Source: a virus
Lineage: Duplodnaviria > Caudoviricetes
IMG/VR virus record: IMGVR_UViG_3300029288_000075
Span: 1-64,000 of that record
Strand: one strand, 5' to 3'
Length of the DNA: 64,000 nucleotides
Positions 4,987-59,848 of the stretch are shown in pieces. A program made the translations under genes and the position numbers. Each line of letters begins with the position of its first letter. The first letter of the stretch is position 1. Under the pieces are notes generated by a model that was given only the letters and a program-made list of their open reading frames with translations, was not told the DNA's origin and did not search any database.

Positions 4987-5015
4987 AGTGTAAGGGCAGC
5001 GCGTACCTGGCGCAA
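4987..5015 (-). promoter_or_regulatory. sigma70-type promoter, probably leaderless mRNA
   Basis: Minus strand TTGCGC-N17-TACACT-N6-ATG(4980). Confidence 0.55.
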
Positions 5016-5083
5016 GGCGGCTTTTCGGTCGAAGGTTCTACTTCCTGGTACAATCAGAACGGACGCAATCTGGAAGGCACAGC

Positions 5084-5968: not shown

Positions 5969-5998
5969 TGGCGTCTATGCGAAGTAAGCAGGTGCTCC

Positions 5999-8900: not shown

Positions 8901-9883
8901 TGGTGCAGTTTGCACCGCTGGTGGAGGGCGCCTATGTAGTGGACTACGTGAAGGACCCAGGGTGGTTTGAGGGCATCATGCGCCAGGGGGCCTTCTTCGA
9001 AGTGGAGAAGTTTCATCGTTTCATGGTGCAGGTAGACAAGTCAGCGTTCAGCCTCAGTTCGTTGATGTTCGTGCGCAGTTTTGTACTTCGAGTGAAGCCA
9101 ACGTACACCTTCCCTCTCTTCGTTGTGCGAGCGAAAGCACATGACCTAGGTATTAGCGTGGACGACACCGTCACGCAGCGTGGTCGGCTCGTGTTGAACG
9201 ACGGCGCCTGCTTCAACGGATGGAACTACTCCACCATGCTCGATGACGTACGCGCAGCCGGTGGCGCCATACGCAATCAGCTCGATACTTCTTCAAACCC
9301 CGCGTTGTCGCCCCCGGTGTTTCCGGTGCCCTCTGCTCAAGTGGAATGGGGCTGGGACAAGAACTACCTTTGTCCGGAGGACGAGATCATAGCTACCTTG
9401 CGCATGTACCACATAGGTGGACCCGTGGCGTTGGACAGCTTCTTCAATCTGGATGGTACCAACGTACCGTCGCATCTGTTTTTGGAGAACGGCTTGGTTG
9501 CGGTGCCAGGTGCAGGCTATACTTTTTCGTCTATTTCTTCCGTAACGGTGACGGGGTCGCTCGAGTCGGTGGTCTTGACCGTTCAGGGATCTCTGGGAGT
9601 AGGAGACAACGGGAACTACCTGATTGTGCCCGTATTGAACTCCGTGCCGTTGACAGGGCTGCCCATCACGATTCCGCTGGAGGGCGTGTTCACTGAGCTT
9701 TCGCTGACAGCCATTGGGGTTACTAGCGGGGATGTGCTGGGATTGCAGCTGGTTCCTGCCGATGGATTGGACAAGACTCCGTCCTGGGTCCTTATTTCTG
9801 CTCTGTTCAAGCAGACGCCAATTCCTTTCAGCATAGACGGCGGGTTGCCAGCCGGTACATACTCAACGACCAAACTGCTCTAA
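5999..9883 (+). CDS. Large baseplate/tail protein with PKD domain, 1294 aa
   Basis: PPTADAGSDQ...LDGTASRDPEGGNITYSW PKD signature; later GPTMYNLRVG and FVLRVKPTYT segments resemble baseplate wedge proteins. Confidence 0.65.
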   Translation: MASGYGSGWGLTPWGGFLLPSGTPPPTPPTPPDGFDIYVYYEYGPSMGAILTDPAVSTSGGSFEINLEYDLCIRSGAPAPSTTAIFLLTSLVPASWTYQCTGTAHQLPVDFSNLPQSHIYFGVADATGIAAGLFISSAGVGYTGSVSFPGGTLTLTSPFQVIPGTAGMIEPGIEYTYRIAVDDTTQTVYLFITETALLEAHVTGHRLVAILPAIPSFEVTEDVTTISVKGTDVRPSWFCISMLGLATDLFMPNVPPTADAGSDQSLRMCSVGRLDGTASRDPEGGNITYSWRLIDAPPASTFAFEGHDGFTVPLPVPTGYTSKFYSASLGSESLLDPVLSGDVVLVGGSPFSVVTTGVDGDGFYVQVTTNAFVDSLLTVSFKLLRQRFLTGSTTSRPTFYPDIPGLYKFDLVVYDGEYLSSPSTTIVNVLESQVPKGVIPDLGFLWNYLSDFWSLVEDRERIQVYWEGMAQVAAAELLNLWQVDYGKSLRDIQRTFQRRWLHYDLKLPEPLPDLTLLRKSYGGVSSYSIPLSGVSGVSGTMLVIESPVHATLRIVFVQANPFTPEKVQVTLQAKLRGVDSRYSVAVVGTSGDPVVRILAPFYFEVGADTTTPLFMVGAGNRAVSGTSGIRITARVYRVEKSLQSLDVQEGDMLVVGGEGYLISRVADDPGDGLRYQRILVQHDMPLLPGSDWTIASTVSSKLLNFYGGMLSARDDVTFEVVDSAQPGLVLLHASVLAACKEEVNKLGVDVSDIDRYLSMPTVSSRLAYVLRKTHLPIGDLVTDIPCLQQNIKETDDTAVLRRNVDYYVEEFRGANSVRMVSGNSWDPGDVWEGGDPPDRLWAEVTYFDNRPMIEANFGVPAEFTLDQLDEVASDLDYLSAVRGLWYAYLNGPTMYNLRVGSQILLGLPFSEEAGVIEEVREDFSVTQGRILVRDANNEAIVRSYHYPLPLTLEINPATGQRYAVGDSVVQFAPLVEGAYVVDYVKDPGWFEGIMRQGAFFEVEKFHRFMVQVDKSAFSLSSLMFVRSFVLRVKPTYTFPLFVVRAKAHDLGISVDDTVTQRGRLVLNDGACFNGWNYSTMLDDVRAAGGAIRNQLDTSSNPALSPPVFPVPSAQVEWGWDKNYLCPEDEIIATLRMYHIGGPVALDSFFNLDGTNVPSHLFLENGLVAVPGAGYTFSSISSVTVTGSLESVVLTVQGSLGVGDNGNYLIVPVLNSVPLTGLPITIPLEGVFTELSLTAIGVTSGDVLGLQLVPADGLDKTPSWVLISALFKQTPIPFSIDGGLPAGTYSTTKLL

Positions 9884-45644: not shown

Positions 45645-47678
45645 ATGAGTATCCCTGGTTCGTTGATGATGGGTGGCGCCGGCAGCGGTTCTCGTTTTGT
45701 ACAGACCCGTGGGCGCATGGGAAATGGCTACAGCCAGGGGGTCAACTACCCGAGCCCGTTCTTCGACATCGCTCACACGTACTTGCCCATCACCATCAAG
45801 TCGATGCTGCGGTGGTGCCGTTACTACTTTCTGACGAATCCCATCATCAACGCCACAGTCACCAAGTTGGCGGAGTACCCCATTACGGAAATCATGATCG
45901 ACCATCCCGAGAAGCGGGTGGCGGACAAGTGGAAGGAGTACTTCGAAGACCATCTGAACTACCGCGCATTCCAGATTGAGTGTGGCCTTGACTACCATAC
46001 CTACGGGAATTGCCTGTCTAGCTTGAGCTTTCCTTTCAAGAAGTACCTGACGTGTGCTCAATGCGGGTTTCAAGCTGAAGCAAAGCGGATTCGTCCCCAT
46101 TGGGTTTTCACCAATTACGAGTACCGACTGAGTTGTCCCAAGTGCGGCAATCTAGGCACCGCTCGAGCACGTGACGTCTACCTCAAGAGCGAGGATGGTG
46201 TGCAGGTGATGCGGTGGAACCCGGAGGATGTAGAGATTACGTACTCTGCGCTCACGGGGGAGCACACGTACTTCTACAACATACCTGCGTCGGTGCGTAA
46301 CGATGTCATCATAGGTAAGAAGGACGCGGTAGAACAGGTCCCTGAGGTGTTTATTCAGGCGTTGCGCCAGCAGAAGGGTGTTGTATTTTCGAAGGACTTG
46401 TTCTTTCACCTGCGTCGGCCGACGCTGGCTGACCAGGATCGCGGGTGGGGTATTCCTCTGCTTCTTCCCTGTCTGAAAGACACGTTCTACCTGCAGATCA
46501 TGAAGAAGGCGCAAGAGGCCATTCTGCTCGAGCACATTGTTCCTCTGCGCACAATTTCTCCGCAAGCGGGCTCTGGTACCTCTGACCCGTATACCACCAT
46601 CAACCTGGTGGATTGGCGTGATCATGTAGCTACGGAAATTGCGCGTTGGCGCATGGACCCGAACTACATTCCCATCCTGCCGCTGCCCATCTCTAGCCAG
46701 ACCATTGGCGGGGATGGTCGTGCGCTTCTGTTGATCCAGGAGATGCAGGCCATCAGCGAGAACCTCATCAACGGTATGCAGGTTCCGCTCGAGTTCATCA
46801 AAGGTGGCTTGAGCTACGCCGGTACGAATGTGTCGATGCGTATGCTCGAGAACCAGTTCATCATCTACCTGTCGCGGCACAAGCGGCAAGCGCAGTGGGT
46901 GATGCGTAGCGTGGCCGACTACTTAGGGTGGCCGTTGGCTTCCATTCGTTTCAAGCCGTTCAAGATGGCCGACGACATCCAACGTAAGGCCTTCTTGTTC
47001 CAGCTCAACCAAGCCAACAAGGTCAGCGAAACGACATTGCTGGCTGATTCGGATTTGGATCAGGACCGTGAGAATCAGATCATGGAGCGCGAGACGGCGC
47101 AGCGGATCCGTGCAACGGAGAAGCAGCAGCTGGCCACGGCTGAATTGCAGGGCAGGCAGCAAGTTATCATGATGAAGATGCAGGCCAAGGCACAGCAGGA
47201 GATGCAGGCAGCCATGGCTGCCCCCAATGCCCCAGGAGAACCTGGTGGCCCTGCTAGTGGAGCAGCAGCGCCAGGAGGACAGGGCGGCGCTGACGTCATG
47301 CCCAGCAATCCAATGGCGGCTATGCAGAGTCCTCTCAACTCGACCCAGGATATGGGCTTGGGGCATAGCCAACAGCCAGGGCAACAGGCGCAGATGGGTG
47401 GCACTGATATCGTGTTGATGGCGCAGACCTACGCGCAGCAGCTATCTCAGATGAACGCTGCGCAGCAGCTGATCGCCCTCAAGAACTTGCGAACGCAGTC
47501 TCCAGAGTTGGCGGACTTGGTGATGCAGTACTTGCGCAGCATGCCGCGGTCGGTAAACGAGCCTTCTATGCCCGCTGCAAACTCTCAGATGGGGGCGGCC
47601 GGCGCCGCGGCGCAAGAAGTGGATATGACACCGCAGCCAGAGAAGCTTCCGCCAAGACGTGCGGCGGGCATGGTGTGA
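45645..47678 (+). CDS. Probable portal protein with Zn-ribbon insertion
   Basis: NPIINATVTKLAE, FHLRRP...GWGIPLL, coiled-coil and disordered tail; CAQC...CPKC. Confidence 0.6.
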   Translation: MSIPGSLMMGGAGSGSRFVQTRGRMGNGYSQGVNYPSPFFDIAHTYLPITIKSMLRWCRYYFLTNPIINATVTKLAEYPITEIMIDHPEKRVADKWKEYFEDHLNYRAFQIECGLDYHTYGNCLSSLSFPFKKYLTCAQCGFQAEAKRIRPHWVFTNYEYRLSCPKCGNLGTARARDVYLKSEDGVQVMRWNPEDVEITYSALTGEHTYFYNIPASVRNDVIIGKKDAVEQVPEVFIQALRQQKGVVFSKDLFFHLRRPTLADQDRGWGIPLLLPCLKDTFYLQIMKKAQEAILLEHIVPLRTISPQAGSGTSDPYTTINLVDWRDHVATEIARWRMDPNYIPILPLPISSQTIGGDGRALLLIQEMQAISENLINGMQVPLEFIKGGLSYAGTNVSMRMLENQFIIYLSRHKRQAQWVMRSVADYLGWPLASIRFKPFKMADDIQRKAFLFQLNQANKVSETTLLADSDLDQDRENQIMERETAQRIRATEKQQLATAELQGRQQVIMMKMQAKAQQEMQAAMAAPNAPGEPGGPASGAAAPGGQGGADVMPSNPMAAMQSPLNSTQDMGLGHSQQPGQQAQMGGTDIVLMAQTYAQQLSQMNAAQQLIALKNLRTQSPELADLVMQYLRSMPRSVNEPSMPAANSQMGAAGAAAQEVDMTPQPEKLPPRRAAGMV

Positions 47679-48024: not shown

Positions 48025-48063
48025 TCCTCTACCTTTCTTATCCCTGGTTTTTGGCTATTATTT
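48025..48063 (-). promoter_or_regulatory. Phage-specific promoter motif B
   Basis: AAA-N16-GGGATAAGAAAGGTAGAGGA. Confidence 0.7.
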
Positions 48064-49401
48064 CAGGAAGATGGTCTGTCCCCACGCCGCGGGCTTTGTG
48101 CGTGACGTAGGCACGATGCACCAGATCACCTCCATGTTGGTAGGCGGTTCTTCAGGTACCGTACCGTCACCGTCTGTGATGTAGATGAGCATGTCTGGTC
48201 GAGGCATGGCCTTGCATGCTTGTGCTATTGGCTGCCTGAAGTCCGTACCTCCACGCCCGTGTATTTCCATCTGGTACAAGTCCGCTGAGCACACCAGTGT
48301 TGGTTCCCGTTGTATTTTGGTGTCTGCCTCGAGGTAGTACACCTGCGAAGTGCCAGTTTGGTCGATGACGTCGGCGCAAACGCGCAGTGCGGCGCCCAGC
48401 TCAGGCTTGCCCATGGACAAGGAACTGTCCACTACTAGCCAGAGGCAGGGGTCGTAGTCAACCAGTCCAGGTAGCATGAACCCGCGGAGGTAAGACCGCT
48501 TTGACGGACGTTTGCGGCTGTAGTCAGAGCCGCCTACCCGAATGTGGTCTATGGTTTGGCTGGTGACTTCAGCCAGCAGCGATTCCCAAGGAACGTTGAA
48601 GGTTTCGTCGCTGGCGATGATGAGCTCGGACCAGATACCGGGGGCATTATCCCTACCGGTAGCTTGCAGGTGGTCTTTGATAGCCTGCGAGGTGAGTCTT
48701 ACGATGTGTCTCTTGTAGGCGTCAGAGCGACCTCCGTTCTTCTCTGCATTTTTGGCTGCTTCGAGCGCCTCAGATGTCGAAGCGCTAGATACGCCACCGC
48801 AGCAGCCAGCCATGAATTTGTTGTGGTGTTTTCCAGACTGGCCTTCTTGGTCGTTGCCGTCACCTGCTTCGCCTGAATCTCCGGCAGTACTTTTCTGCTT
48901 CTGTTCCTTCTCGTGCTGTTTCAGCCTGCGGTAGTACTCGTCCGCGGTAAGTCCGTTTGGCCATGCGTACTGCGCAGGAAGTACTGCCCAGTCAGGAAAT
49001 AGCCAAAGAGGTCGTTCTTCCGTGTTGGGGCCGCTGCTGTTCTTGAGTCGTACGGTGCGCTTTTGCTCCACCATCACACCGTTGATGAACAGGTCGCACG
49101 CCAAGAAAAAGGTCTGCGTATCTGGATAGCGCAGCCCTCTCTTCACATGCTCGAGCTGCACATGAAGGCACTCGTGAGCCAATCCGGTGGCCACAATTTG
49201 GGGATCTTCTGTAGCCACCCAGGCAGGGTCGTAGAGAAGCACAAGTTGCTCAGTTACGGCCATAGGGCCCTTGGCTATTTGCATCATGTGCTCGACTGGC
49301 GTTGGTATCAACGCGTAGAGTGTCGGGCTTAGGTATGGTGCAAACTGTCGGACAATCGCCCGCGCCAAGGGCAGCGCGGGCGACATATCTTGGTACGTCA
49401 T
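48058..49401 (-). CDS. Metallopeptidase-VWA protein (DUF2201-like)
   Basis: AHECLH, MIDAS VVDSSLS, GRGGTDF, YITDG. Confidence 0.85.
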   Translation of the reverse strand: MTYQDMSPALPLARAIVRQFAPYLSPTLYALIPTPVEHMMQIAKGPMAVTEQLVLLYDPAWVATEDPQIVATGLAHECLHVQLEHVKRGLRYPDTQTFFLACDLFINGVMVEQKRTVRLKNSSGPNTEERPLWLFPDWAVLPAQYAWPNGLTADEYYRRLKQHEKEQKQKSTAGDSGEAGDGNDQEGQSGKHHNKFMAGCCGGVSSASTSEALEAAKNAEKNGGRSDAYKRHIVRLTSQAIKDHLQATGRDNAPGIWSELIIASDETFNVPWESLLAEVTSQTIDHIRVGGSDYSRKRPSKRSYLRGFMLPGLVDYDPCLWLVVDSSLSMGKPELGAALRVCADVIDQTGTSQVYYLEADTKIQREPTLVCSADLYQMEIHGRGGTDFRQPIAQACKAMPRPDMLIYITDGDGTVPEEPPTNMEVIWCIVPTSRTKPAAWGQTIFLK

Positions 49402-50672
49402 AGTTGCTCTTCCAAGAACTTGTTCAAGCCACCCTTAGCTAGCGGCACTATCACTTTCTGTGCTGCCTGCGCGACTGCCTTGTCCTGGCACTTCATGCCT
49501 AGACGCTGCGTGATCATGCTTTCAGCGTATGGCACTACGATGTCCGCCAAGTTTGCAGTTTGTAGTCGGCCGAGAGCTGCCCACATCAAGGGGGCCAGTT
49601 CTACTTTTTCCTCCATGGTGCTGCGTTGTCGCAGATACGAGGCAGCGCTGGCGTAGGCCATCACAACGATGTCCAGGCGATCCTTGTCAGGCTGCCATGT
49701 GCCGTCTAGCACGGCCATTGGCTCTGGCATGTCTGCTGTTTGAAGAAAGGTGGATAGCGTGGCTGCAGGTCCTTGCCCTACGCAGCATTCCACCAGCGTG
49801 TCACGCACCAGCTCAGATTTGCCAAGAATGGAGCAGGTGGTCCAGAGCCTGCCGGCGAAGTCCCACGTTCTAGAGGAAGGCCAGGCCTTGCTGCTTCTTG
49901 GGTCTGTTGCGGCAGGTTCCTGGTTGAACAGGGTGGGGTTGGATTTCAAGAAGGCGGTGATGAGGGAGAACGAGATGGGTTCTGCGTTTTTCCAGTTCTC
50001 CGTGACCATGGCTTCCAGGTTTAGTAGTGAGTGCGAGGAAGTAGCTGACGCGCCAAACATTTTGTAGGAAGTCCACTGCTCCAGCGGAAGGGACGGGTAT
50101 TCGTAGTGTGCAAAGCGCTGAGCCAATGGGGCAGACAGCCGGATGCCATTCGTGGCGATGTGCACTGGATTCTGGGCGGCAACGATGCGTACCTCGTTGG
50201 GTAACCTGGTATCCCCAGAAGCACGTTCGTGAACGAACGCTTGAAGTGCGGTATGCGTGGCCCTGGTACCACCGTTTATCTCGTCCAAGAAGATGATGCC
50301 CCGACCGTGTTCCACCATCTCACGGACCTGCGGTAGTGGACAGATCTGTTTGGCTCCGCCTCTGCCATCCGGGATGAGCACGCTGGCAAAGTCCTCCGGG
50401 GCGTGCTGTGACGCGTATAGGGTGACCAGCCTTTCTTGCATTGCGTCTGATAGCTGTTCAATCTGCGCAGTTTTCGCACTGGCAATCTTGCCCTCGATGA
50501 GTAGTGGGATCCCCCAAATGCACTTGGTGTCTCCTGGGGATCCCTTCATCGGTGTAGCAAAGCAGACCTCGAGCAGGTCTAGCAGCAGCGGTCTTGGACC
50601 AGCTACCGATGGCTGTGCGGTGGTGCGGAGGGCTGATAGGTTTGCTACAGTTTGCTTTCTCTTCATGGCCAT
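49398..50672 (-). CDS. MoxR-like AAA+ ATPase
   Basis: Walker A GKIASAKT, IFLDEIN, AAQNP, LAQRF, PSSRTW. Confidence 0.85.
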   Translation of the reverse strand: MAMKRKQTVANLSALRTTAQPSVAGPRPLLLDLLEVCFATPMKGSPGDTKCIWGIPLLIEGKIASAKTAQIEQLSDAMQERLVTLYASQHAPEDFASVLIPDGRGGAKQICPLPQVREMVEHGRGIIFLDEINGGTRATHTALQAFVHERASGDTRLPNEVRIVAAQNPVHIATNGIRLSAPLAQRFAHYEYPSLPLEQWTSYKMFGASATSSHSLLNLEAMVTENWKNAEPISFSLITAFLKSNPTLFNQEPAATDPRSSKAWPSSRTWDFAGRLWTTCSILGKSELVRDTLVECCVGQGPAATLSTFLQTADMPEPMAVLDGTWQPDKDRLDIVVMAYASAASYLRQRSTMEEKVELAPLMWAALGRLQTANLADIVVPYAESMITQRLGMKCQDKAVAQAAQKVIVPLAKGGLNKFLEEQL

Positions 50673-51253
50673 TACTTGCATTCTCCAGTGCGATGTACGC
50701 AGGTTGAGTGGTCGCAGGTTCTAGTTCTCCAGCACCGTTCGAATAGTCCGTCCAGACATACGGAGAGTCCAGGCACTGGTTCCACCCCTGTTTTCCAAAT
50801 GGGGGTGTCTCGGCTTTCTTCCAAGTGATTTAGGCAGCCTATGCACACGTGTATTTCGTTGTTCATGCCCACGAACTTGGGCATGTACTCGCGGTGCGGG
50901 TTGCGTTCGGAGTAGTGAAGTTCGCCAAAGGCAGCAGTAGCGAAGGCTTCTCCCTGAAGTATGTCGCTGCCGCAGATGTCACATTCCACTATCCCATCGG
51001 CATCCTCGAGCGGCGGTGAGTCTTCTAGTAGCTCCTTCACTTCTTCAAGGGTCTCTTCCCAGCAGCTGAAGCACCAGAACACCGGTATGTAGCGGAAGTA
51101 CCCGTTCATCTCTAGGACGTCCACCATCTGTAGTCCCGCGTCGGTGTTGACTACGTGCACGATGTGAAATAGAAAGACTTCGTCGGTGAGACCTAGCTCA
51201 TCGCCGCAAGAGGTGCAGTAGATACCAGATCCAACTTCTACCTCTTCCTCCAT
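50672..51253 (-). CDS. Tandem Zn-finger protein
   Basis: Two CxxC...CxxC repeats plus a C-terminal Cys cluster. Confidence 0.7.
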   Translation of the reverse strand: MEEEVEVGSGIYCTSCGDELGLTDEVFLFHIVHVVNTDAGLQMVDVLEMNGYFRYIPVFWCFSCWEETLEEVKELLEDSPPLEDADGIVECDICGSDILQGEAFATAAFGELHYSERNPHREYMPKFVGMNNEIHVCIGCLNHLEESRDTPIWKTGVEPVPGLSVCLDGLFERCWRTRTCDHSTCVHRTGECK

Positions 51254-51852
51254 AGCCGTGCCCTTTCTCTAGGAGCCGTTCGTTCAATACTGACCCAGCG
51301 GGTTTCTATGGTGGCCATGTTCAAGTCGGGTCCCATGCCTGTGCGCAGGTCTATGTCGTTCAGTAGCAGCATGTTTTCTGCGAAGTCGTTGCCCCTCCCG
51401 TTGTGGATGAGCCGTTCAAATGACAGCCCTGGCTCGAGCATTGAACCGGCTGGATACCTTGCACGCGCTTCTAGCTCACGGTCATACAGGTCATCTAGGA
51501 GGTCGTCATCGTCTACTGCCAGACCAACCCAGTCACGGTCGTTGGTATCCACGTAATCCTGGTCTAGCCACTCGCAGTAGGATCCTGGTGTTGCCATTTG
51601 CAGCAAGACTTCCAGGTCTCTTTGGTTGCAGAAGCTGATGAAACCTTTGTTGTCCACGACCTTGGCACGTACACCGCCAATTGCCCTGCCAATCACAGGC
51701 GTGTACAAGGAGTACACCGACCAGACCCGGTCATCGTGGTGCACGTCGTAGAAGGTTGACCCCAGGATTCCGAGGGTACTTTCTACGATGTGCGTACCGG
51801 GTATAGGAGCCAGTTCGTTTTTCCCCTCGAGGGTGAACGGATTGACAATCAC
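51238..51852 (-). CDS. Hypothetical protein
   Basis: GGAGG RBS, GTG start. Confidence 0.65.
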   Translation of the reverse strand: MIVNPFTLEGKNELAPIPGTHIVESTLGILGSTFYDVHHDDRVWSVYSLYTPVIGRAIGGVRAKVVDNKGFISFCNQRDLEVLLQMATPGSYCEWLDQDYVDTNDRDWVGLAVDDDDLLDDLYDRELEARARYPAGSMLEPGLSFERLIHNGRGNDFAENMLLLNDIDLRTGMGPDLNMATIETRWVSIERTAPRERARLWRKR

Positions 51853-51941
51853 GGGTTCCTCCAGATGAGCGAGTCCATCAAGTAGTGGGAGAAGCCGAAG
51901 ATGAACCCTGCGATGAATGCCCAGATGAGGAGCGATTTCAT
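51849..51941 (-). CDS. 30-aa membrane peptide (not in ORF track)
   Basis: MKSLLIWAFIAGFIFGFSHYLMDSLIWRNP, coupled at both ends. Confidence 0.45.
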   Translation of the reverse strand: MKSLLIWAFIAGFIFGFSHYLMDSLIWRNP

Positions 51942-51942
51942 A

Positions 51943-52092
51943 TTAGGATTCTTTTTCCGGCTCTTCTGTTGTACTTTCAGTTGATGATGACCTGCTGTAC
52001 AGGTCTTGTACCAACTGGCGGTACTTCTCTCCGGAGTCAGGGCGATCAGGAAACTCTTGTGCTGTTGGGCGTTTTTGTTCTTTGCGTGGCAT
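51943..52092 (-). CDS. 49-aa hypothetical protein (not in ORF track)
   Basis: GGAGG RBS directly after motif C; MPRKEQKRP... Confidence 0.45.
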   Translation of the reverse strand: MPRKEQKRPTAQEFPDRPDSGEKYRQLVQDLYSRSSSTESTTEEPEKES

Positions 52093-52110
52093 GCGACCCT
52101 CCGATAAAGC

Positions 52111-52138
52111 TCTTATCCCGTAGGGTGCGTGTCCCTTG
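52111..52138 (-). promoter_or_regulatory. Phage-specific promoter motif C
   Basis: CAA-N16-GGGATAAGA at the head of the MoxR/VWA operon. Confidence 0.6.
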
Positions 52139-52187
52139 CACCTTTTTGTCCCCGCAACCGCTGGTTCCAGCTATACTCTCGTAGAGC

Positions 52188-55100
52188 ATGACGCACTTGA
52201 ATCCGACTGAAGCGTTCGAGCACTACCGCGACAAGACCCTGGGTGCGATCAGGAAGCAGTTCCCTGTCGACGGGCAGAACCAACGTCTCGAGCTGGTGGA
52301 CCTAGAAGTTCAGGACAACTTGAATCCCGACGATATCAGGGATCAGCAGCAGGCCAAGGTAACAGGGAAGACTTGGGGTATCCCGGTTTACGCCAAGCTC
52401 AAGTTGGTGAACAAGGTCACTGGCGAGACGACTCAGTCGCGTACCAGAATTGCTGAGCTTCCCAAGATTACATGCCGACAGAGCTACATCGTAGGCGGGC
52501 AGGAGTACCAAGTAGACAACCAGTGGCGGCTCAAGCCTGGCGCGTATGTGCGGAGGAGGCAGACCGGACAGATTGAGGCAATGTTCCAGCCGGGTAACAA
52601 GCCGTCGTTCGACGTTGTTTTTGATGACGCGACGAAGGAGTTCAAAGTAGAGCTCCCTGGCGGTAAAGCGTCTGTGCCGCTGTACCAGATCATTTCCACG
52701 TTGGGTGTTTCTGATGACGAGTTGCACAAGGCGTGGGGTCCTGAGGTATTGGCTGCCAACAGAAATGCACGTGGTGTTCACGGGGCGGTGGAGCAGTACT
52801 ACAAGACCACGACAAAGAAGGAGGCACCCAGTGCGGCAGTAGCTGTAAGTCATCTAGTGACTTCACTGCAGCAAACGCAGCTGCGACCCGAAGCTACGGC
52901 GCTCACGCTTGGGAAGCCGATAGACCATGTGAACGGTGATGCTCTGCTGCGGGCTACTCGCAGGATGTTGGATGTCCAGTCTGGTGGGCCTGTAGATGAC
53001 CGCGATTCGCTGGTGTTCAAGGACCTCAGGAGCGTTGGGGATTTCTCCGAGGACAAACTACGTGAGGCTGGTGCAGATATTCGACGTAAGATGTCGAGGC
53101 AGGTGAATCGCGCAACCAACCCGTCCCACATGGTGCCGCTTGACGCGTTCAATAGGCCCATCAGGGACACGTTCTACAAGAACTCTGCAGCGCAGGTAGC
53201 CAAGCAAATCAACCCGGTGGAGATCTTGTCGGCTGCGCAGCAGACCACGGTGATGGGACCTGGCGGTATCCAGTCCGAGAATCAGATCATGCCCGAGGTG
53301 AAGTTTGTGAATCCCTCGCACATGGGCTTCTTGGACCCGATACATACGCCGGAAGGTGGAAAGACGGGCGTTACCTTGCGGTTGCCTATGAGCGTGAAGC
53401 AAGTTGGGTACGAGCCTAGGATTCCGCTGTACAACATACGTACAGGAAAGGTGGAAGACGTAGGGCCTGCCGCGTTTCTGAAATCGAAGATTGTACTTCC
53501 TGACCAGGTGGACTGGAAAGGCGGGAAGCCGGTAGCTCGAGGGCGTACGGTGAAGCTATCCGTGGCAGGCAACGACGTATCGGATGGCCATTTGCACGAG
53601 GCTGACTACGTGATGCAGCACACGTCGCAGTTCTTCAATGTCACCAGCAACTTGATCCCGTTCATCAACAGCACTTCTGGTGGCAGAGCATCTATGGCCA
53701 CCAGGCACATGGAGCAGGCCATCTCTCTGGTGGGACGAGAAGCACCTCTTGTTCAAGTAGGCACTGGCTCCGCTACCCCGGGTAGCACCACTTTCGAAGA
53801 GGTTGTAGGCACTCGCGCGTCTCATTACTCTCCGATCGCGGGCGTGGTGAAGGCAGTGAAGCATGACGCTGTGGTAGTAGCTGGCCACGACGGCAAGGAG
53901 CACGAGGTGCAGATCTACCGCAACTACCCGCTGAACGACGCCAAGTCGGTTTTGGACTCCACAGCGATTGTGAAGCCTGGTGATCGCGTGCGTGCGGGGC
54001 AGGTGGTGGCGGATACGAACTTTTCAAAAAACGGCGTAATTGCCTTGGGCACGAACCTGCGCGTGGGCTACATCCCGTACACGGGGTACAACTTCGAGGA
54101 TGGAGTAGTCATCAGCGAAAGTGCTGCGACGAAGCTCAGTAGCGACCATCTATACAAGCACAAGGTTCCCGTAGATGCCGAGTCGGTGTTGTCGAAGAAG
54201 CACTTTGTGACGCACCACGCTGGCTTGTTCAGCAAGGATCAGTTCGCAAAGGTAGGAGATGACGGGCTAGTTGCCGTAGGATCCGTGGTGCATCCCGGAG
54301 ACCCGCTGGTCTTGTCTATGAAGCAAGTGGTTGCGCGTGACCGCACGGGGCTATCCGCCATCCGTAAGAGCTTTGGGACTCAGTTTGCCGACCAGTCTAC
54401 TGTCTGGGACGGGGTAGGTGAAGGCAGGGTTGTGAGCTCCGAGAAAGTTGGCGACCACGTGGTTGTACACGTGCGGGCAATTGAGCCGATGCAAGTTGGC
54501 GACAAGTTGGCTGGTAGGTACGGCAACAAAGGCATTGTCACCAAGATTGTGCCGGACCACGAGATGCCACGTACACCCGATGGGAAGCACATAGAGGTGG
54601 CGTTGAATCCCTCGGGGGTACCTGGGCGTATGAACGTAGGGCAAGTGCTGGAGACTGCGGCTGCCAAGATTGCCCAGAAGACGGGCAAGCCGTACATTGT
54701 GCAGAACTTTTCAGATGGTAGTCAGCTTGCTCGGGTGCAAGCCGACCTGAAGAAGCACGGGCTGAGTGACACAGAGGACTTGTTTGATCCTATTACGAAG
54801 CAGCGCTTGGGCACTGCGCTGGTCGGCTCCCAGCACATGATCAAGCTGCACCATCAAGTGGACAAGAAGGTGTCCGTACGCTCTGGCATGACGTTGCCGG
54901 GAGAAGCTCCAGAGAAGTACAACTCCAACCTGCAGCCGGTGAGTGGCAAGCATACCGGCGGACAAGCGATGGACCCGCTAGGTATGTACTCTCTGCTCGC
55001 GCACGGGGCTCGTGCAAACATCCGAGAGATGGCCACGTGGAAGAACGAAGGTCCGGACATGTCTTCCAATCCGTCCAAGCAGTGGCATAGTCAGCATCAC

Positions 55101-58100
55101 GAGGTGTGGGATGCCATACAGCACGGTGACCCGTTGCCCGTGCCGAAGCCGACTTTCGCCTTTCACAAGTTCACGTCGATGCTTACCGCCGCGGGCATCA
55201 ACGTAGATAAGAAAGGGCACAACTTCATCTTGGGCCCGTTGACGGATTCCCACATACAGCAGTCGTCTGGAGATCGGGTACTGACGAAGCCTTCGGAGAT
55301 TGTTTACGCGAAGCTGGATTCGAAGACGGGGGAGCCCAAGCCCAAGCCGGGAGGGTTGTTTGACGACCGCCTTACTGGTGGCAATGGCGGACGTAAATGG
55401 AGTCGAATCGCCCTTGCCGAGCCGGTGCCAAATCCCGTGTTTGAGGATTCCATCCGGATGCTGACGGGGCTCTCTTCTGCGGACTACCACGGGTTGGTGC
55501 ATGGGGTGCACGCGATAGACAGTCACGGCCACATCGTAGAGGCTGGCAAGGGCACTACTGGCGGTGCGGCGATTGAGCAGCTGCTGAAGAAGATAGATGT
55601 GGCTGCCGAGTTGGATAAGTCCAAGAGGGCTTTGAATACGCTACCGGCGTCGAAGGTGGATGCCACCCTGAAGAGGGTGAAGCGGCTACAAGCACTTCAC
55701 CAGTCTGGCTTGTCTGCTGATGAGGCATACGTGCTGCACTCCCTGCCAGTCATTCCTCCAGCTATGCGCCCAGTCACTGTCATGCACGACGGCTCGCTGA
55801 AGTTCGATGACATCAATCAGCTGTATGCCAAGGCAGCTCAGACGAACATGTACTTGGGGGATCAAACGTTGGCCACGAACTTGCCGGAACAGCGCAGGAG
55901 AGATTTGCGCAAGGAGATGTACGACGGTGTCAGTGCATTGATGGGAGTCGGTATCCCGTACAAGGATGCGCAGCATAAGGGCCTATTGCATCTGATCCAG
56001 GGCGCGCAGCCCAAGACCGGCTATTTCCAGAGCACGCTCATCAGTCGCAAGCAAGACCTGAGCATGCGGTCTACCATTGTTCCGGAACCCTCCTTGGGGT
56101 TGGACGAGGTAGGGTTGCCTCGAGAGCAAGCCATGAAGCTGTTTTCTCCCTTTGTGGTGGGTGAGTTGAAGAAGTCAGGAATGGCCATCAACGTGGCCGA
56201 CGCGCAGAAGATGGTAGCTTCCGGCACGCCCGCGGCGCACAGGGCGTTGGCCAAAGTCATGACCGAACGTCCCGTGATGCTGAAACGAGATCCTTCGTTG
56301 CACAAGTACAGCATCCAGGCGTTTCAGCCTAAGGTGGTGGAGGGTAGCGCTATCAAGATTCACCCGCTGGTTACTGGGGGGTACAACGCAGACTTCGACG
56401 GGGACACCATGAGCGTGTTCGTGCCTATCTCTCAAGAGGCAGTGGATGAGGCGCACCGCATGTTCCCGTCCAACAACCTGTTCAGCGAAGCTACAGGCAA
56501 GGTCATGTACCAGCCTACGCTGGAGTCTGCGCTGGGGCTGTATAAGCTGTCGCGTGTCAATGATACGAAGGCGCACCACATCTCTCACCCTGCGGAAGCG
56601 ATTACCGCGGTGCAGCAGGGGAAGCTAACGGTGAATGACCGGGTGAAACTGGGAAATCAGGTCACCACACCAGGTCGTATCATTTTGGCGGCCGCCCTGC
56701 CTGAGCCAATGCAGCGTCCTATGCTGGAGAACCTTGGGCAGCAGTTGGACAAGAAAGGGCTGGACGCGCTGCTGACTACAGTGGCCAAGAACCATGTCGG
56801 AGACTATGGGCATGTAGCAGACAAGCTGAAGAACTTGGGTAACGGGGCGGCAAGTGGCGTGGTCACGGTGGAGCATGACGGATTCGTGGGTGCTGCACGT
56901 CTGGACCAGAAGAATAGAACTTACGTGCCTGTGGGCGTCCACACGCTGGCGTTGTCCGACTTTGAGCCAGATACGAAGACCAGGGAGCGAGTGTTGGCAC
57001 CGGCTCGTTTGGAGGCGGCACAGGTAAGGCAGGGGGGTGGTACCAAGTACAACAAGGATGCTGCGCTGGTGCGTATTTGGTCTGCAGCAGACCGCAAGAT
57101 GCAGGAAGAGCACATGAAGGTGGCCACAGACGATCCGACCAACCTCATGATGATGCACTTGGCTGGCGTGAAGCCCGGGTGGGGACAGTACAAGCAGCTC
57201 ACGCTGGCACCCATGCTGGTGGCCGACGCTTCTGGAAGAATCATCCCAGTGCCTATTACCCGCAGCTACTCCGAGGGGCTGGATTCTGGAGATTACTGGA
57301 ACCAGATGCACGGAGCTCGGCGTGGTGCGGTCATGAAGGTGCAGGAGGTCCAGGAACCTGGGTATCTTTCGAAGCTGATGATGGCCAACACTATGAACAT
57401 GGTGGTGCATGGGAACGACTGTGGCACTGAGCGCGGTATTGCTCTTCCTGTGACCGACCCAGATGTGCATGACCGGTTCTTGCAGCGTGAATTCAACGAG
57501 AAGGGAGTGCATGTCCCCTCCGGTACCTTACTCACTCCGCGGGTAGTCACCAGCATGCGTTCAGCAAACAAGAATGCTCAGATCGTGGTGCGCAGCTCGT
57601 TGAAGTGCGAGCATGCTACTGGGGTGTGCCAGAAGTGTATGGGGCTAGCGGCCAATGGCAACTTGCATTCTGATGGGGACAATGTTGGTGTTACGGCTGC
57701 ACAGACGCTGGGTGAGCGCGCGGTGCAGTTGACCATGCGCGTTTTTCATACCGGTGGCGTGGCGGATACCGGGAGTGGTTCCCGCGTGCTGGGGGAATTC
57801 GATCGGGTGCAGCAGCTCATGAAGTTGCCCAAGCGCATACCCGACGCGGCCACGTTGGCTATGGCATCGGGCACAGTTGACAAGGTGGAAAAGACGGCCA
57901 CCGGCATGAACATCTTCGTTGGGGGTAAGAAGCACTTCGTGGGGAAAGACGCTCGAGGGGCACCCTTGTGGCATTCCATAGGGGACAATGCGCATCCTGG
58001 CTGGGTCCCCCCGCGGGTAGGGACCCAGGTGACGCGAGGCCAGTCGCTGAGTGATCCTCTTCGTACGCTGGTGAATCCGCATGATCTGTACAAGGCCACT

Positions 58101-58583
58101 GGGAGCATTGAGACTGTGCAGAACCACCTGGCGGACCAACTGCATTCCTTGTACAAAAGCGAAGGGATCAAGCGGCAGCACGTGGAGACTGTGGTCAAGG
58201 CCATGAGCAACCTGTCCGAGGTAGCCGCCCCTGGGGACTACGAGGGTGTCCTGCGTGGCGAATTCCATCCCACGTCCAAGCTCATTGCGGTCAACAAGCG
58301 GCTGATTCGGGAGGGTAAGAAGCCGATAGAGCACAAGCCGGTACTGAAGGGGGTGGACATCATGCCGTTAGCGGTTCAAGAAGATTGGATGGCCAAGATG
58401 CAGCACATCAAGCTCAATCAGACCCTGCTGGATGCAGCGGCCACAGGCGGTAGATCCAGCATCCATGGCATGCACCCCATTCCTGCTCTGGCGTATGGTG
58501 CTGAGTTTGGTTTGACAAGTGAGCATGCCAAGCAGCGGTCAGCCTTGAGCCATCTTCACGATGTGCAGGGGCACGAGTACTGA
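52188..58583 (+). CDS. Single-chain beta-beta' DNA-dependent RNA polymerase, 2131 aa
   Basis: beta motifs TPEG, GYNFEDG, GDKLAGRYGNKG, NPSGVPGRMNVGQ followed in frame by beta' motifs LPVIPPAMRP, YNADFDGD, HGARRG, TMRVFHTGG. Confidence 0.95.
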   Translation: MTHLNPTEAFEHYRDKTLGAIRKQFPVDGQNQRLELVDLEVQDNLNPDDIRDQQQAKVTGKTWGIPVYAKLKLVNKVTGETTQSRTRIAELPKITCRQSYIVGGQEYQVDNQWRLKPGAYVRRRQTGQIEAMFQPGNKPSFDVVFDDATKEFKVELPGGKASVPLYQIISTLGVSDDELHKAWGPEVLAANRNARGVHGAVEQYYKTTTKKEAPSAAVAVSHLVTSLQQTQLRPEATALTLGKPIDHVNGDALLRATRRMLDVQSGGPVDDRDSLVFKDLRSVGDFSEDKLREAGADIRRKMSRQVNRATNPSHMVPLDAFNRPIRDTFYKNSAAQVAKQINPVEILSAAQQTTVMGPGGIQSENQIMPEVKFVNPSHMGFLDPIHTPEGGKTGVTLRLPMSVKQVGYEPRIPLYNIRTGKVEDVGPAAFLKSKIVLPDQVDWKGGKPVARGRTVKLSVAGNDVSDGHLHEADYVMQHTSQFFNVTSNLIPFINSTSGGRASMATRHMEQAISLVGREAPLVQVGTGSATPGSTTFEEVVGTRASHYSPIAGVVKAVKHDAVVVAGHDGKEHEVQIYRNYPLNDAKSVLDSTAIVKPGDRVRAGQVVADTNFSKNGVIALGTNLRVGYIPYTGYNFEDGVVISESAATKLSSDHLYKHKVPVDAESVLSKKHFVTHHAGLFSKDQFAKVGDDGLVAVGSVVHPGDPLVLSMKQVVARDRTGLSAIRKSFGTQFADQSTVWDGVGEGRVVSSEKVGDHVVVHVRAIEPMQVGDKLAGRYGNKGIVTKIVPDHEMPRTPDGKHIEVALNPSGVPGRMNVGQVLETAAAKIAQKTGKPYIVQNFSDGSQLARVQADLKKHGLSDTEDLFDPITKQRLGTALVGSQHMIKLHHQVDKKVSVRSGMTLPGEAPEKYNSNLQPVSGKHTGGQAMDPLGMYSLLAHGARANIREMATWKNEGPDMSSNPSKQWHSQHHEVWDAIQHGDPLPVPKPTFAFHKFTSMLTAAGINVDKKGHNFILGPLTDSHIQQSSGDRVLTKPSEIVYAKLDSKTGEPKPKPGGLFDDRLTGGNGGRKWSRIALAEPVPNPVFEDSIRMLTGLSSADYHGLVHGVHAIDSHGHIVEAGKGTTGGAAIEQLLKKIDVAAELDKSKRALNTLPASKVDATLKRVKRLQALHQSGLSADEAYVLHSLPVIPPAMRPVTVMHDGSLKFDDINQLYAKAAQTNMYLGDQTLATNLPEQRRRDLRKEMYDGVSALMGVGIPYKDAQHKGLLHLIQGAQPKTGYFQSTLISRKQDLSMRSTIVPEPSLGLDEVGLPREQAMKLFSPFVVGELKKSGMAINVADAQKMVASGTPAAHRALAKVMTERPVMLKRDPSLHKYSIQAFQPKVVEGSAIKIHPLVTGGYNADFDGDTMSVFVPISQEAVDEAHRMFPSNNLFSEATGKVMYQPTLESALGLYKLSRVNDTKAHHISHPAEAITAVQQGKLTVNDRVKLGNQVTTPGRIILAAALPEPMQRPMLENLGQQLDKKGLDALLTTVAKNHVGDYGHVADKLKNLGNGAASGVVTVEHDGFVGAARLDQKNRTYVPVGVHTLALSDFEPDTKTRERVLAPARLEAAQVRQGGGTKYNKDAALVRIWSAADRKMQEEHMKVATDDPTNLMMMHLAGVKPGWGQYKQLTLAPMLVADASGRIIPVPITRSYSEGLDSGDYWNQMHGARRGAVMKVQEVQEPGYLSKLMMANTMNMVVHGNDCGTERGIALPVTDPDVHDRFLQREFNEKGVHVPSGTLLTPRVVTSMRSANKNAQIVVRSSLKCEHATGVCQKCMGLAANGNLHSDGDNVGVTAAQTLGERAVQLTMRVFHTGGVADTGSGSRVLGEFDRVQQLMKLPKRIPDAATLAMASGTVDKVEKTATGMNIFVGGKKHFVGKDARGAPLWHSIGDNAHPGWVPPRVGTQVTRGQSLSDPLRTLVNPHDLYKATGSIETVQNHLADQLHSLYKSEGIKRQHVETVVKAMSNLSEVAAPGDYEGVLRGEFHPTSKLIAVNKRLIREGKKPIEHKPVLKGVDIMPLAVQEDWMAKMQHIKLNQTLLDAAATGGRSSIHGMHPIPALAYGAEFGLTSEHAKQRSALSHLHDVQGHEY

Positions 58584-59848
58584 TGGCGGGTCACCACCAG
58601 GGACTAGCCGAGGCGGCGCGCGGGGCAATACGGCCTCGTACGGAATTCCGTACAAGCATGACTGCGCCGTCAGGGTTGGGTGACACCAACATACTCATGG
58701 CGCGCGTCATCAACGTGGACCTAGTGCACTACACCGTTGACGTATACAGTCAGTTCGATCAAGTGCGCCTGCTGTCGGTGCCCATCGGGTCTCCATATCT
58801 GCACTCGAATCGTGGAGATGGACTCTCTATCACCCCAGAGATTGGTGCCAAGTGTGCCGTCTGCTGGCCTGGGGATAGTTCTCCTCCATTCGTTCTGGCC
58901 TTTGTTATGCCGCACGAGACGGTACCGACGACAGGTGATGCGGAGAGCCCTGGAGGAACGTCCGAGCGCAGCGACAGTAATCAGGGTCCTTCTACAGCCA
59001 GTTTTGCTGGAGGTAGACCAAAGGGTAAGCCGGGGGACATAGCTCTGCGGGGTCGGGATGGGCAGTTCGTTGTACTGCACCGCGGCGGCGTGCTCCAGGT
59101 TGGAAGCAACGAGCTAGCGCAACGCTTGTATATCCCGCTGAACAACCTGGTGATGGACGTGGCCGAGAACTATGCCATGCAGAATTCCGGCGGGTCAATA
59201 CGCTGGGGAATACAAGAGGGAGAAGGTGAGACCACCCTTCCTACTGAGTACAAGCACGCCATGCGCGTGTACGCGAACGACAAGTATGCAGATCTTCGCA
59301 TAGGCATGGGGCGCGTACATGATCCAGTGCCCGAGATGGATGACGACGGGATTACGGACTTGGCAGCCGCTGAAGTAGGAAAGACAGAGCCCATCGTGTG
59401 CGAGCTCTCCCTTGCTAGGAACGGGTTCAAAGCAGAGAGCGGTGCGCTACTACCTGGTACGGGCAACCTGGTGAAGCTTCGATTCATCTTTGACCGTGCT
59501 GGCAACGCGTTTCTGCGTATGGATGGAAACGTTGGTATCTTGTGCAAGAAGAAGTTGCGTCTTCGTGTGAAGGGCGACATGGAGGTGTTCGCCGACAGCA
59601 ACTTCAGCCTGACTGTAGCTAGCAGTGCAAAGATAGCCGTGGGTGGGAACTTCGAGCTCACGGCACCCGTGGTGCGCGTAAACGATGGAGACAAGCCTGT
59701 AGCACGTGTAGGGGACCAGGTGTCCGTAACGTTACCGCCTACGTTGCTCATGGTAGCTCCGGGCCCGCCGGGGTTCATGCCAATACCGCCGGGCATGAAC
59801 TCAACGATTGGTGTCATCACCAGTGGTAGATCGGACTTCTTGGCGTAA
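58583..59848 (+). CDS. Baseplate central spike (gp5/GpV-like) with PAAR-like tip
   Basis: OB-fold (TPEIGAKCAV), beta-strand repeats, KPVARVGD. Confidence 0.7.
   Translation: MAGHHQGLAEAARGAIRPRTEFRTSMTAPSGLGDTNILMARVINVDLVHYTVDVYSQFDQVRLLSVPIGSPYLHSNRGDGLSITPEIGAKCAVCWPGDSSPPFVLAFVMPHETVPTTGDAESPGGTSERSDSNQGPSTASFAGGRPKGKPGDIALRGRDGQFVVLHRGGVLQVGSNELAQRLYIPLNNLVMDVAENYAMQNSGGSIRWGIQEGEGETTLPTEYKHAMRVYANDKYADLRIGMGRVHDPVPEMDDDGITDLAAAEVGKTEPIVCELSLARNGFKAESGALLPGTGNLVKLRFIFDRAGNAFLRMDGNVGILCKKKLRLRVKGDMEVFADSNFSLTVASSAKIAVGGNFELTAPVVRVNDGDKPVARVGDQVSVTLPPTLLMVAPGPPGFMPIPPGMNSTIGVITSGRSDFLA

What the first reader, a model, noticed from the sequence alone, without database searches (positions are those of the whole stretch)
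55300..55960. RNAP lacks the beta' zinc-binding domain and sigma-docking residues
GGLFDDRLTGGNGGRKWSRIALAEP directly joins the segments that flank the four-Cys Zn finger in bacteria (GLFC...GHIELA). By manual alignment, clamp-helix residues needed for sigma70 binding (E. coli R275, E295) correspond to T and L. Inference: promoter recognition is independent of host sigma70.
Basis: partly seen in the sequence, partly recalled or inferred. Interest (0 to 1): 0.7.

Follow-up and report, generated by a model that had tools for sequence, protein, structure and literature searches.

The report
Zinc-finger-less phage RNA polymerase, own sigma
A 188-kb uncultured phage makes a one-chain bacterial-type RNA polymerase that has lost the zinc finger and changed every known sigma-contact residue, yet it keeps the sigma docking helices and most likely uses the phage's own sigma factor, not none.

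Summary
ORF 52188-58583 is a 2131-aa fused beta-beta' RNA polymerase. E. coli beta' residues about 64-99, with all four zinc cysteines, are replaced by a short Gly-rich turn at 55350-55424. R275, E295 and A302 align to T1219, L1240 and G1247 in two independent alignments. All eight clamp-helix residues that contact sigma32 in E. coli are changed.

The loss is lineage-wide: 265 of 265 relatives have no cysteine there, including cultured phages Arash and D69. Three other phage beta' lineages keep the zinc finger.

The clamp coiled-coil still folds, with a conserved surface of its own, and the flap-tip helix is kept. The genome also encodes one full sigma2-3-4 factor of the sigma28/WhiG type, outside the window at genome 125585-126340. 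A matching bipartite promoter, GNAAA-N15-GGNATAAG, occurs at 26 sites.

In Arash, the sigma and polymerase orthologues are both found in virions. The best reading is therefore an orthogonal phage core-sigma pair that is insulated from host sigma70, not a sigma-free enzyme. Binding itself is untested.

The scan reached the same conclusion earlier on another genome (e1-5748839).

The parts
52188..58583 (+). Fused beta-beta' RNA polymerase gene (2131 aa, P0001)
   Evidence: One open frame. Pfam Rpb2_3, Rpb2_6, Rpb1_1, Rpb1_2 and Rpb1_5 occur in order. E 2e-107 to bacterial beta' chains in the PDB. More than 150 clusters of fused relatives of about 2000-2160 aa exist.
52188..55220 (+). Beta-like half (residues 1-1011); ends with GINVDKKGH, aligned to the E. 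coli beta C-terminus GINIELEDE
   Evidence: MAFFT with E. coli beta+beta'.
55221..58583 (+). Beta'-like half (residues 1012-2131); starts at the equivalent of E. coli beta' residue about 19, with no linker
   Evidence: VIA-align places model residues 10-501 on E. coli beta' 16-579, Z 24.
54345..54380 (+). Flap-tip-helix equivalent (TGLSAIRKSFGT, residues 720-731), the usual dock for sigma region 4
   Evidence: Aligned to E. coli beta 896-907. The amphipathic pattern is kept across the family.
55350..55424 (+). Junction without the zinc-binding domain (residues 1055-1079); the Gly-rich turn TGGNGG replaces E. coli beta' residues about 64-99
55809..55943 (+). Clamp helices (coiled-coil): helix 1208-1224 and helix 1234-1252
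   Evidence: AF2 model shows H209-225 and H235-253 of the fragment with pLDDT 88-94. Family-conserved residues are N1210, Y1213, N1220, L1223, L1240, R1241, Y1245, D1246, A1250 and G1253.
55842..55844 (+). T1219, equivalent of E. coli beta' R275
   Evidence: In the family this position is V/I/T/N.
55905..55907 (+). L1240, equivalent of E. coli beta' E295
   Evidence: Leu in 63 of 88 family members.
55926..55928 (+). G1247, equivalent of E. coli beta' A302
   Evidence: G/S/A in 80 of 88 family members.
56385..56405 (+). NADFDGD catalytic Mg site (residues 1400-1406)
   Evidence: D403, D405 and D407 of the fragment are invariant.
57420..57638 (+). Second zinc site retained (C1745, C1807, C1814, C1817)
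   Evidence: These Cys columns are nearly invariant in the family.
45645..47678 (+). Portal protein homologue, placing the polymerase gene in the virion-gene neighbourhood
   Evidence: tblastn of the Arash gp204 portal gives E 8e-81 and D69_259 gives E 2e-95. In Arash the portal lies two genes upstream of the polymerase.
52112..52139 (-). One of the phage promoter-like sites (GCAAG-N15-GGGATAAG). It faces away from the polymerase gene and lies inside the small ORF 51885-52184.

Best explanation
The ORF encodes a slimmed, bacterial-type RNA polymerase core made as one chain (beta fused to beta'). The phage genome shows no alpha or omega homologue.

Its whole lineage has deleted the N-terminal beta' zinc-binding domain. 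It has also re-surfaced the clamp helices, but it has kept the two structural docks for sigma: the clamp coiled-coil and the flap-tip helix.

I infer that the core pairs with the phage's single sigma factor (251 aa, sigma28/WhiG-like, genome 125585-126340). That sigma's region 2.2 helix is conserved within the family but differs from cellular sigmas at contact positions. On this reading the pair forms a private holoenzyme that reads phage promoters of the form GNAAA-N15-GGNATAAG and cannot be captured by host sigma70.

By analogy with phage Arash, core and sigma are probably carried in the virion to start transcription in the next host.

Shown here: the deletion, the substitutions, the retained folds, the sigma gene, its co-occurrence with the polymerase, and the promoter motif.
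Inferred: physical core-sigma binding, exclusion of host sigma70, and packaging in this phage.
For: Polymerase:
- The zinc-domain deletion and R275T/E295L/A302G are confirmed.
- All eight sigma32-contact residues of the clamp helices (PMC10216364) are changed, while E. coli and Streptomyces share them.
- The clamp helices fold confidently. They carry strongly conserved residues (R1241 in 76/88, Y1245 in 80/88, Y1213 in 87/88, N1210 in 85/88), which implies a conserved partner.
- The flap-tip helix is retained.

Sigma:
- There is one sigma gene in the genome: Pfam Sigma70_r3, NCBIfam SigBFG/WhiG/FliA, and phmmer hits to WhiG and SigF over residues 24-245.
- Its AF2 model (pLDDT 85) matches sigma-D, SigB, WhiG and SigA chains over its full length.
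- Region 2.2 is conserved in the sigma family (A66 in 67/69, A69 in 62/69, E70 in 61/69, A78 in 68/69). At the sigma70 positions D403 and I410 it has A and K; E407 is kept.

Co-occurrence and packaging:
- Arash gp10 (sigma), gp206 and gp216 (polymerase) are abundant in virions (PMC10585845).

Promoter and subunits:
- The promoter motif occurs at 26 sites against 12.2 +/- 4.7 expected, with A at -17 in 23 of 26.
- No alpha or omega homologue was found.
Against: - No binding or complex model could be made, because the fold tool handles single chains only.
- Nine matched polymerase/sigma pairs showed no clear covariation at the candidate contact positions.
- The Arash virion list also contains enzymes such as ribonucleotide reductases, and its authors note possible carry-over, so packaging is not proven even there.
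- The plus-strand operon that holds the polymerase gene has no GGNATAAG site in the window. A second promoter class, and perhaps another factor or the host polymerase, must therefore exist.
- The phage sigma could instead serve the host core.
Confidence: 0.6

Rival explanations
1. The phage sigma redirects the HOST core polymerase to phage promoters, as T4 gp55 or SPO1 gp28 do. The fused phage polymerase would then use another, unrecognised specificity factor (like phiKZ gp68 or AR9 gp226) or none.
For: - Phage sigmas that capture the host core are the rule in large phages without their own polymerase (PMC7824862).
- The promoter resembles the cellular sigma28 type (consensus from general knowledge).
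- The clamp-helix contact residues are all changed.
- No covariation was seen.
Against: - Sigma region 2.2 lacks the Asp (sigma70 D403) shared by sigma70, sigma32 and WhiG in the alignments and in PMC10216364. It also replaces the hydrophobic I410 by Lys/Arg, which fits a host core poorly.
- Sigma is found together with the polymerase in Arash virions.
- The clamp helices keep a conserved exposed pattern.
Confidence: 0.15
2. One reading: the single chain recognises promoters by itself, with no sigma-like factor. The loss of the zinc domain and of the sigma contacts would mark the end of sigma use.
For: - The zinc domain and all canonical contact residues are gone.
- Single-chain two-barrel polymerases such as YonO work without sigma (cited in PMC7481178).
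Against: - Clamp coiled-coil and flap-tip helix are retained and conserved.
- A co-inherited full-length sigma exists.
- The promoter is bipartite with sigma-like -35/-10 spacing.
- Core enzymes of this fold are not known to initiate specifically on their own (PMC7598289).
Confidence: 0.1
3. The substitutions are tolerated and host sigma factors still dock. The polymerase would be a spare core that uses host sigma70 as well as the phage sigma.
For: - The coiled-coil and flap-tip folds are kept.
- A302 becomes a small residue (G).
- Sigma70 E407 has an equivalent Glu in the phage sigma, so part of the interface chemistry survives.
- Endosymbiont polymerases with changes at these positions still function (PMC8321222).
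Against: - Eight of eight contact residues are changed, including charge reversals (R281->D, M298->E, I291->R).
- Single changes R275Q, E295K and A302D already break sigma70 binding in E. coli (cited in PMC8321222).
Confidence: 0.1

Closest known systems
RNA polymerase of Salmonella phage Arash (gp206 + gp216, with sigma gp10; OQ632216.1, PMC10585845) and of Vibrio phages D69/D181/D148
   Same: - 30-32% identity over about 1500-2100 residues.
- Same zinc-free junction and same clamp-helix pattern.
- Portal gene nearby.
- Orthologous sigma.
- Genome size 181-188 kb.
   Different: In Arash and D69 the enzyme is in two pieces, cut after the equivalent of residue about 1489 (beta plus the beta' N-part, then the beta' C-part). 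Here it is one chain. The Arash paper annotates the genes and reports virion proteomics, but in the passages found by searching it for 'RNA polymerase' and 'RNAP' there is no mention of the zinc domain, the clamp helices or promoters; the paper was not searched for those words.
mReC clade (multimeric-RNAP-encoding Caudovirales; Weinheimer & Aylward 2020, PMC7481178)
   Same: Large uncultured tailed phages from IMG/VR and metagenomes, with bacterial-like beta and beta' that branch outside cellular clades. This is very likely the same lineage, but that is an inference: contig names were not compared.
   Different: That paper treats phylogeny only. A text search of it finds no mention of zinc or sigma, and 'fused' and 'fusion' each appear only once, for crAss phage.
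E. coli RNA polymerase with the beta' zinc-binding domain deleted, and sigma28 holoenzyme (bioRxiv 10.1101/2020.01.02.893370)
   Same: A bacterial-type core without the zinc-binding domain is still catalytically active and sigma-dependent. The phage sigma is of the same group-3 (sigma28/WhiG) type.
   Different: In E. coli the deletion specifically weakens sigma28- and sigma38-dependent promoters, and it could not be made in vivo. Here a sigma28-like factor apparently works with a core that naturally lacks the domain.
phiKZ / AR9 jumbo-phage multisubunit polymerases (PMC7598289, PMC7618050, PMC9209446)
   Same: Phage-encoded two-barrel enzymes without alpha or omega. One form is virion-packaged. 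A specificity subunit sits on the clamp helices where sigma2 sits.
   Different: Those enzymes are split into 4-5 very divergent pieces, and their specificity subunit has no sequence similarity to sigma. This one is fused, clearly bacterial-like (E 1e-107) and pairs with a recognisable sigma70-family protein. The published dichotomy for jumbo phages, 'own polymerase and no sigma, or sigma and no polymerase' (PMC7824862), does not hold here.
Other phage bacterial-type beta' proteins: Rhizobium phage RHph_Y65, Yersinia phage YerA41, Cobetia phage Carin-5
   Same: Homologous beta' N-terminal region. In Carin-5 a gene annotated as 'RNA pol sigma factor' lies next to the polymerase genes.
   Different: All three keep the four-Cys zinc domain (CxCG...CxKC). 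The loss is specific to the Arash/D69/window lineage.
Cellular rpoBC fusions (Helicobacter, Wolbachia; NCBIfam NF007172, NF011417)
   Same: Beta and beta' in one polypeptide, in the same order.
   Different: Scores are far below the family cut-offs (534 vs 5372 bits). From general knowledge, the cellular fusions are about 2840-2890 aa, keep the zinc domain, and work with alpha2, omega and host sigmas.

Membership tests
Bacterial-type multisubunit RNA polymerase core (beta/beta') | Beta double-psi barrel region and flap (Pfam Rpb2_6, Rpb2_3) | tested here: met
   PF00562 E 1e-53 and PF04565 E 1e-9.
Bacterial-type multisubunit RNA polymerase core (beta/beta') | Beta' NADFDGD Mg site and the Rpb1 domains 1, 2 and 5 (Rpb1_5 being the C-terminal beta' region that holds the bridge helix and trigger loop) | tested here: met
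   NADFDGD at residues 1400-1406. PF00623 and PF04998 score over their cut-offs; PF04997 (Rpb1_1) scores 32.6 bits, below its 39.7-bit cut-off, and matches only profile positions 158-285. E 2e-107 to PDB beta' chains over residues 1122-2095.
Bacterial-type multisubunit RNA polymerase core (beta/beta') | N-terminal beta' zinc-binding domain (E. coli C70, C72, C85, C88) | tested here: not met
   All four Cys fall in gap columns and there is no Cys in the region. The same holds in 265 of 265 relatives.
Bacterial-type multisubunit RNA polymerase core (beta/beta') | Second beta' zinc site (E. coli C814, C888, C895, C898) | tested here: met
   C1745, C1807, C1814 and C1817; nearly invariant in the family.
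Bacterial-type multisubunit RNA polymerase core (beta/beta') | Alpha dimer and omega as assembly partners | tested here: not met
   No PF01000 or PF01192 match at E<=1 in the 187,857-bp genome; the controls hit in 14 of 14 genomes. Use of host alpha or omega cannot be excluded.
Sigma70-family holoenzyme (sigma docking on core) | Beta' clamp coiled-coil present | tested here: met
   AF2 helices 1208-1224 and 1234-1252, pLDDT 88-94.
Sigma70-family holoenzyme (sigma docking on core) | Canonical clamp-helix contact residues (R275, R278, R281, L282, L285, I291, E295, M298; also A302) | tested here: not met
   They align to T, Y, D, T, T, R, L, E and G respectively. The residue list is from PMC10216364.
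Sigma70-family holoenzyme (sigma docking on core) | Beta flap-tip helix for sigma region 4 | tested here: inconclusive
   A short amphipathic segment, GLSAIRKSF, aligns to E. coli 897-906. The individual contact residues differ and the register is uncertain by one residue.
Sigma70-family holoenzyme (sigma docking on core) | A cognate sigma with regions 2, 3 and 4 | tested here: met
   P0269 (genome 125585-126340).
Sigma70-family holoenzyme (sigma docking on core) | Physical core-sigma binding and sigma-dependent promoter-specific initiation | not testable with these tools
   This needs a complex prediction or biochemistry.
Arash-like / mReC phage polymerase lineage | Sequence kinship, zinc-free junction, nearby portal gene and orthologous sigma | tested here: met
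Arash-like / mReC phage polymerase lineage | Polymerase and sigma present in the virion | not testable with these tools
   Known only for Arash, by mass spectrometry (PMC10585845).
phiKZ/AR9-type jumbo-phage polymerases | Beta and beta' split into several polypeptides; no recognisable sigma | tested here: not met
   A single chain and a recognisable sigma.

The most novel reading that the evidence does not exclude
This lineage carries a natural two-polypeptide bacterial-type holoenzyme (fused beta-beta' plus one sigma28-like sigma). It would be delivered in the virion and be fully orthogonal to the host, because the clamp-helix/sigma-2.2 interface has been rewritten on both sides. Loss of the otherwise near-universal zinc domain would be adaptive: it strips a surface through which host or rival-phage regulators, and hairpin- or Rho-linked termination signals, act on cellular polymerase.
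Probability: 0.3. Interest if true: 0.75.

Novelty: new variant of a known kind. Interest (0 to 1): 0.55.

Why it matters
From general knowledge, the N-terminal zinc domain of the largest subunit is conserved in cellular polymerases. In E. coli it could not be deleted in vivo (bioRxiv 10.1101/2020.01.02.893370).

A large natural family that works without the zinc domain, without alpha and omega, and as a single chain gives a minimal bacterial-type transcription machine. It consists of one core protein and one sigma, for which I found no biochemical or structural description in the library searched.

It would allow direct tests of:
- what the zinc domain and the canonical sigma contacts are really needed for;
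- how a core-sigma interface can be re-coded to be private.

It could also supply an orthogonal core/sigma/promoter set for synthetic biology. Finally, it breaks the stated rule for jumbo phages of 'own polymerase or own sigma, not both' (PMC7824862).

Tried and rejected
- Megablast of 24 kb of the window against phage records found no match.
- The only Pfam Sigma70_r4 hit in the genome (67477-67578) is the HTH of an HNH homing endonuclease, not a sigma.
I re-made it with 44 sequences.
- A strict regular expression for the junction missed 108 relatives and E. coli. I replaced it with blastp mapping.
- Foldseek and VIA-align confirm the beta' fold (prob 1.0, Z 24). However, the global rmsd is about 24 A because the isolated fragment's domains sit differently. 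No residue-level superposition on a holoenzyme was possible and model coordinates are not exportable.
- A covariation look at nine matched polymerase/sigma pairs gave no usable signal.
- I tested whether the Lys-x-Ala head-protease motif noted elsewhere in this genome marks the polymerase. It occurs at 11 sites against 12.4 expected, so it does not.
- Searches for alpha and omega homologues were negative.
- A literature search found no biochemical or structural study of this enzyme family.
Full report
**What the region is.** The window is the first 64 kb of a 187,857-bp virus record judged 99% complete. The finding lies inside one ORF, 52188-58583 on the plus strand, which encodes 2131 aa. Pfam finds beta domains (Rpb2_3, Rpb2_6) followed by beta' domains (Rpb1_1, Rpb1_2, Rpb1_5) in order. 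NCBIfam gives rpoB and rpoC models, all below their equivalog cut-offs. phmmer against PDB sequences gives E 2e-107 to bacterial beta' chains over residues 1122-2095. It is the only beta' homologue in the genome. MAFFT with E. coli beta+beta' shows that the beta C-terminus runs straight into the equivalent of beta' residue about 19 at residue 1012.

**Check of the observation.**
- The quoted peptide is residues 1055-1079, nt 55350-55424.
- In the alignment of 35 family members, Arash gp206, Vibrio phage D69 and E. coli, the four zinc cysteines C70, C72, C85 and C88 fall in gaps. I verified their numbering on MG1655 rpoC.
- E. coli beta' 64-78 and 83-99 have no counterpart.
- The protein has five cysteines in all. 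Four of them form the second zinc site, which is retained.
- The AF2 model of residues 1000-1500 has mean pLDDT 88.5 and is confident across the junction. VIA-align maps model residues 10-501 onto E. coli beta' 16-579 with Z 24.
- R275->T1219, E295->L1240 and A302->G1247 are obtained from both phmmer and MAFFT.

**How general the loss is.** The fused enzyme has a very large family. More than 100 clusters at 90% identity were listed, and the 150 best clusters listed at 50% identity all have E<1e-91. Most are 2000-2160 aa; some are longer because of inteins. Many lie on contigs of 165-200 kb. In 265 of 265 members that span the site, the segment between GLFD and HIxL is 19-28 residues with no cysteine. 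The replacing loop is itself conserved. The cultured phages Arash and D69 share it. Three other phage beta' lineages keep the CxCG...CxKC domain: Rhizobium RHph_Y65, Yersinia YerA41 and Cobetia Carin-5. The loss is therefore a trait of this lineage, not of phage polymerases in general.

**Is sigma docking lost?** The published sigma32 open complex lists beta' R275, R278, R281, L282, L285, I291, E295 and M298 as the clamp-helix interface (PMC10216364). E. coli and Streptomyces share these residues. Here they are T, Y, D, T, T, R, L and E, so the canonical surface is gone.

The structure that carries it is not gone. Helices 1208-1224 and 1234-1252 fold with pLDDT about 90. They hold residues that are highly conserved in the family, namely N1210, Y1213, N1220, L1223, L1240, R1241, Y1245, D1246 and A1250. 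This points to a conserved partner. The flap-tip helix, the dock for sigma region 4, is also present.

The zinc domain is not a sigma dock in any case. E. coli polymerase lacking it still transcribes lacUV5 with sigma70, and the defect appears mainly at promoters with weak -35 contacts (bioRxiv 10.1101/2020.01.02.893370).

**The phage has its own sigma.** Outside the window, genome 125585-126340 encodes a 251-aa protein.
- It matches Pfam Sigma70_r3, the PHROG 'RNA polymerase sigma factor', and NCBIfam SigBFG, WhiG and FliA models, the NCBIfam ones far below their curated cut-offs.
- phmmer aligns it to WhiG over residues 24-164 and to SigF over residues 78-245.
- Its AF2 model (pLDDT 85) matches sigma-D, SigB, WhiG and SigA chains over the full length.
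- It is the only sigma found in the genome.
- Arash and D69 have orthologues. The Arash one is gp10. gp10 was found in virions with 100% coverage together with gp206 and gp216, the polymerase pieces, which gave the most spectra of all proteins (PMC10585845).
- Region 2.2 of the sigma is conserved within the family. It has Ala and Lys where sigma70 has D403 and I410, and it keeps the Glu of E407.

**A matching promoter.** There are 26 sites against 12.2 +/- 4.7 in Markov shuffles. At fixed distance upstream there is an A-rich element: A at -17 in 23 of 26 sites and at -18 in 20 of 26, against a base frequency of 0.21. This gives GNAAA-N15-GGNATAAG, often followed by a ribosome-binding site. From general knowledge this resembles the sigma28 consensus TAAA-N15-GCCGATAA, which fits the sigma's family assignment. 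In the window all six sites are on the minus strand (for example 48044 and 52119). None precedes the plus-strand operon that holds the polymerase gene, so another promoter class must exist.

**Context.** ORF 45645-47678 is the portal homologue. In Arash the portal lies two genes before the polymerase. Here a minus-strand block (48058-51852) with a MoxR-like ATPase and a DUF2201/VWA protein lies between them. No alpha or omega homologue exists in the genome.

**Verdict.** The inference of independence from host sigma70 is reasonable, but the mechanism is most likely a private core-sigma pair rather than a sigma-free enzyme. I put this at 0.6. The rivals are sigma serving the host core (0.15), a truly sigma-free enzyme (0.1) and retained host-sigma binding (0.1).

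Papers describe the lineage phylogenetically (mReC, PMC7481178) and proteomically (Arash). I found no mention of the zinc-domain loss, the re-surfaced clamp helices or the sigma/promoter pairing in the library searched. The same reading was reached earlier by this scan on a related genome (e1-5748839).

Noticed in passing
window 52188-52230; genome 125585-125630 and 70045-70090: The polymerase (MTHLNPTEAFEHY), the sigma (MNAADEFLETK) and a 196-aa ORF (MNPAEEFLTEK) start with a similar peptide. (N/D)P-x3-F is conserved at the N-termini of both the polymerase and sigma families, and the strict pattern (M, 0-4 residues, N/D, P, x3, F) is met by only three ORFs in the genome, the polymerase among them; the sigma, with Ala for Pro, is not one of them. 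It may be a shared capsid-targeting tag. However, the polymerase segment also aligns to the natural N-terminal helix of beta, and Arash/D69 lack the motif.
   Followed up: partly
genome-wide; in the window on the minus strand at 25364, 35816, 39849, 48044, 52119 and 63342: Bipartite promoter-like motif GNAAA-N15-GGNATAAG: 26 sites against about 12 expected, often followed by AGGTAGAGGA. All six window sites are on the minus strand, and the plus-strand virion operon has none.
   Followed up: partly
L001 (Vibrio phage D69) 2962-10013; L002 (Arash) 4923-9500 and gp216: In Arash and D69 the polymerase is cut after the equivalent of residue about 1489. This is near where cyanobacterial rpoC1 ends: NCBIfam gamma models match query residues 1107-1487. 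In D69, small ORFs sit in the gap. In D181/D148 a homing endonuclease is annotated within the stretch matched by the polymerase; its exact position was not checked.
   Followed up: partly
relatives P0019, P0025, P0027, P0029, P0155 and others: Many family members carry inteins (Pfam LAGLIDADG_3 and intein splicing domain) inside the polymerase, which stretch it to 2400-4739 aa.
   Followed up: no
window 48058-51852 (minus strand): A minus-strand block lies between the portal and the polymerase genes. It holds a DUF2201 metallopeptidase/VWA protein (48058-49401), a MoxR-like AAA ATPase (49398-50681) and two small ORFs. It is absent at this place in Arash.
   Followed up: no
genome 67030-67671 (3 kb past the window end): An HNH homing endonuclease with a C-terminal HTH that scores as Sigma70_r4. 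It is a false sigma lead.
   Followed up: yes
L015 (Cobetia phage Carin-5) 41-6866: An unrelated 155-kb phage has an operon of an annotated sigma gene, a beta' gene (with zinc domain) and a beta gene. Phage-encoded sigma plus bacterial-type polymerase may therefore have arisen more than once.
   Followed up: no
window 58580-58586: The polymerase stop codon overlaps the ATG of the next ORF (58583-59848, 421 aa, no family hit), which suggests translational coupling with a virion-operon gene.
   Followed up: no
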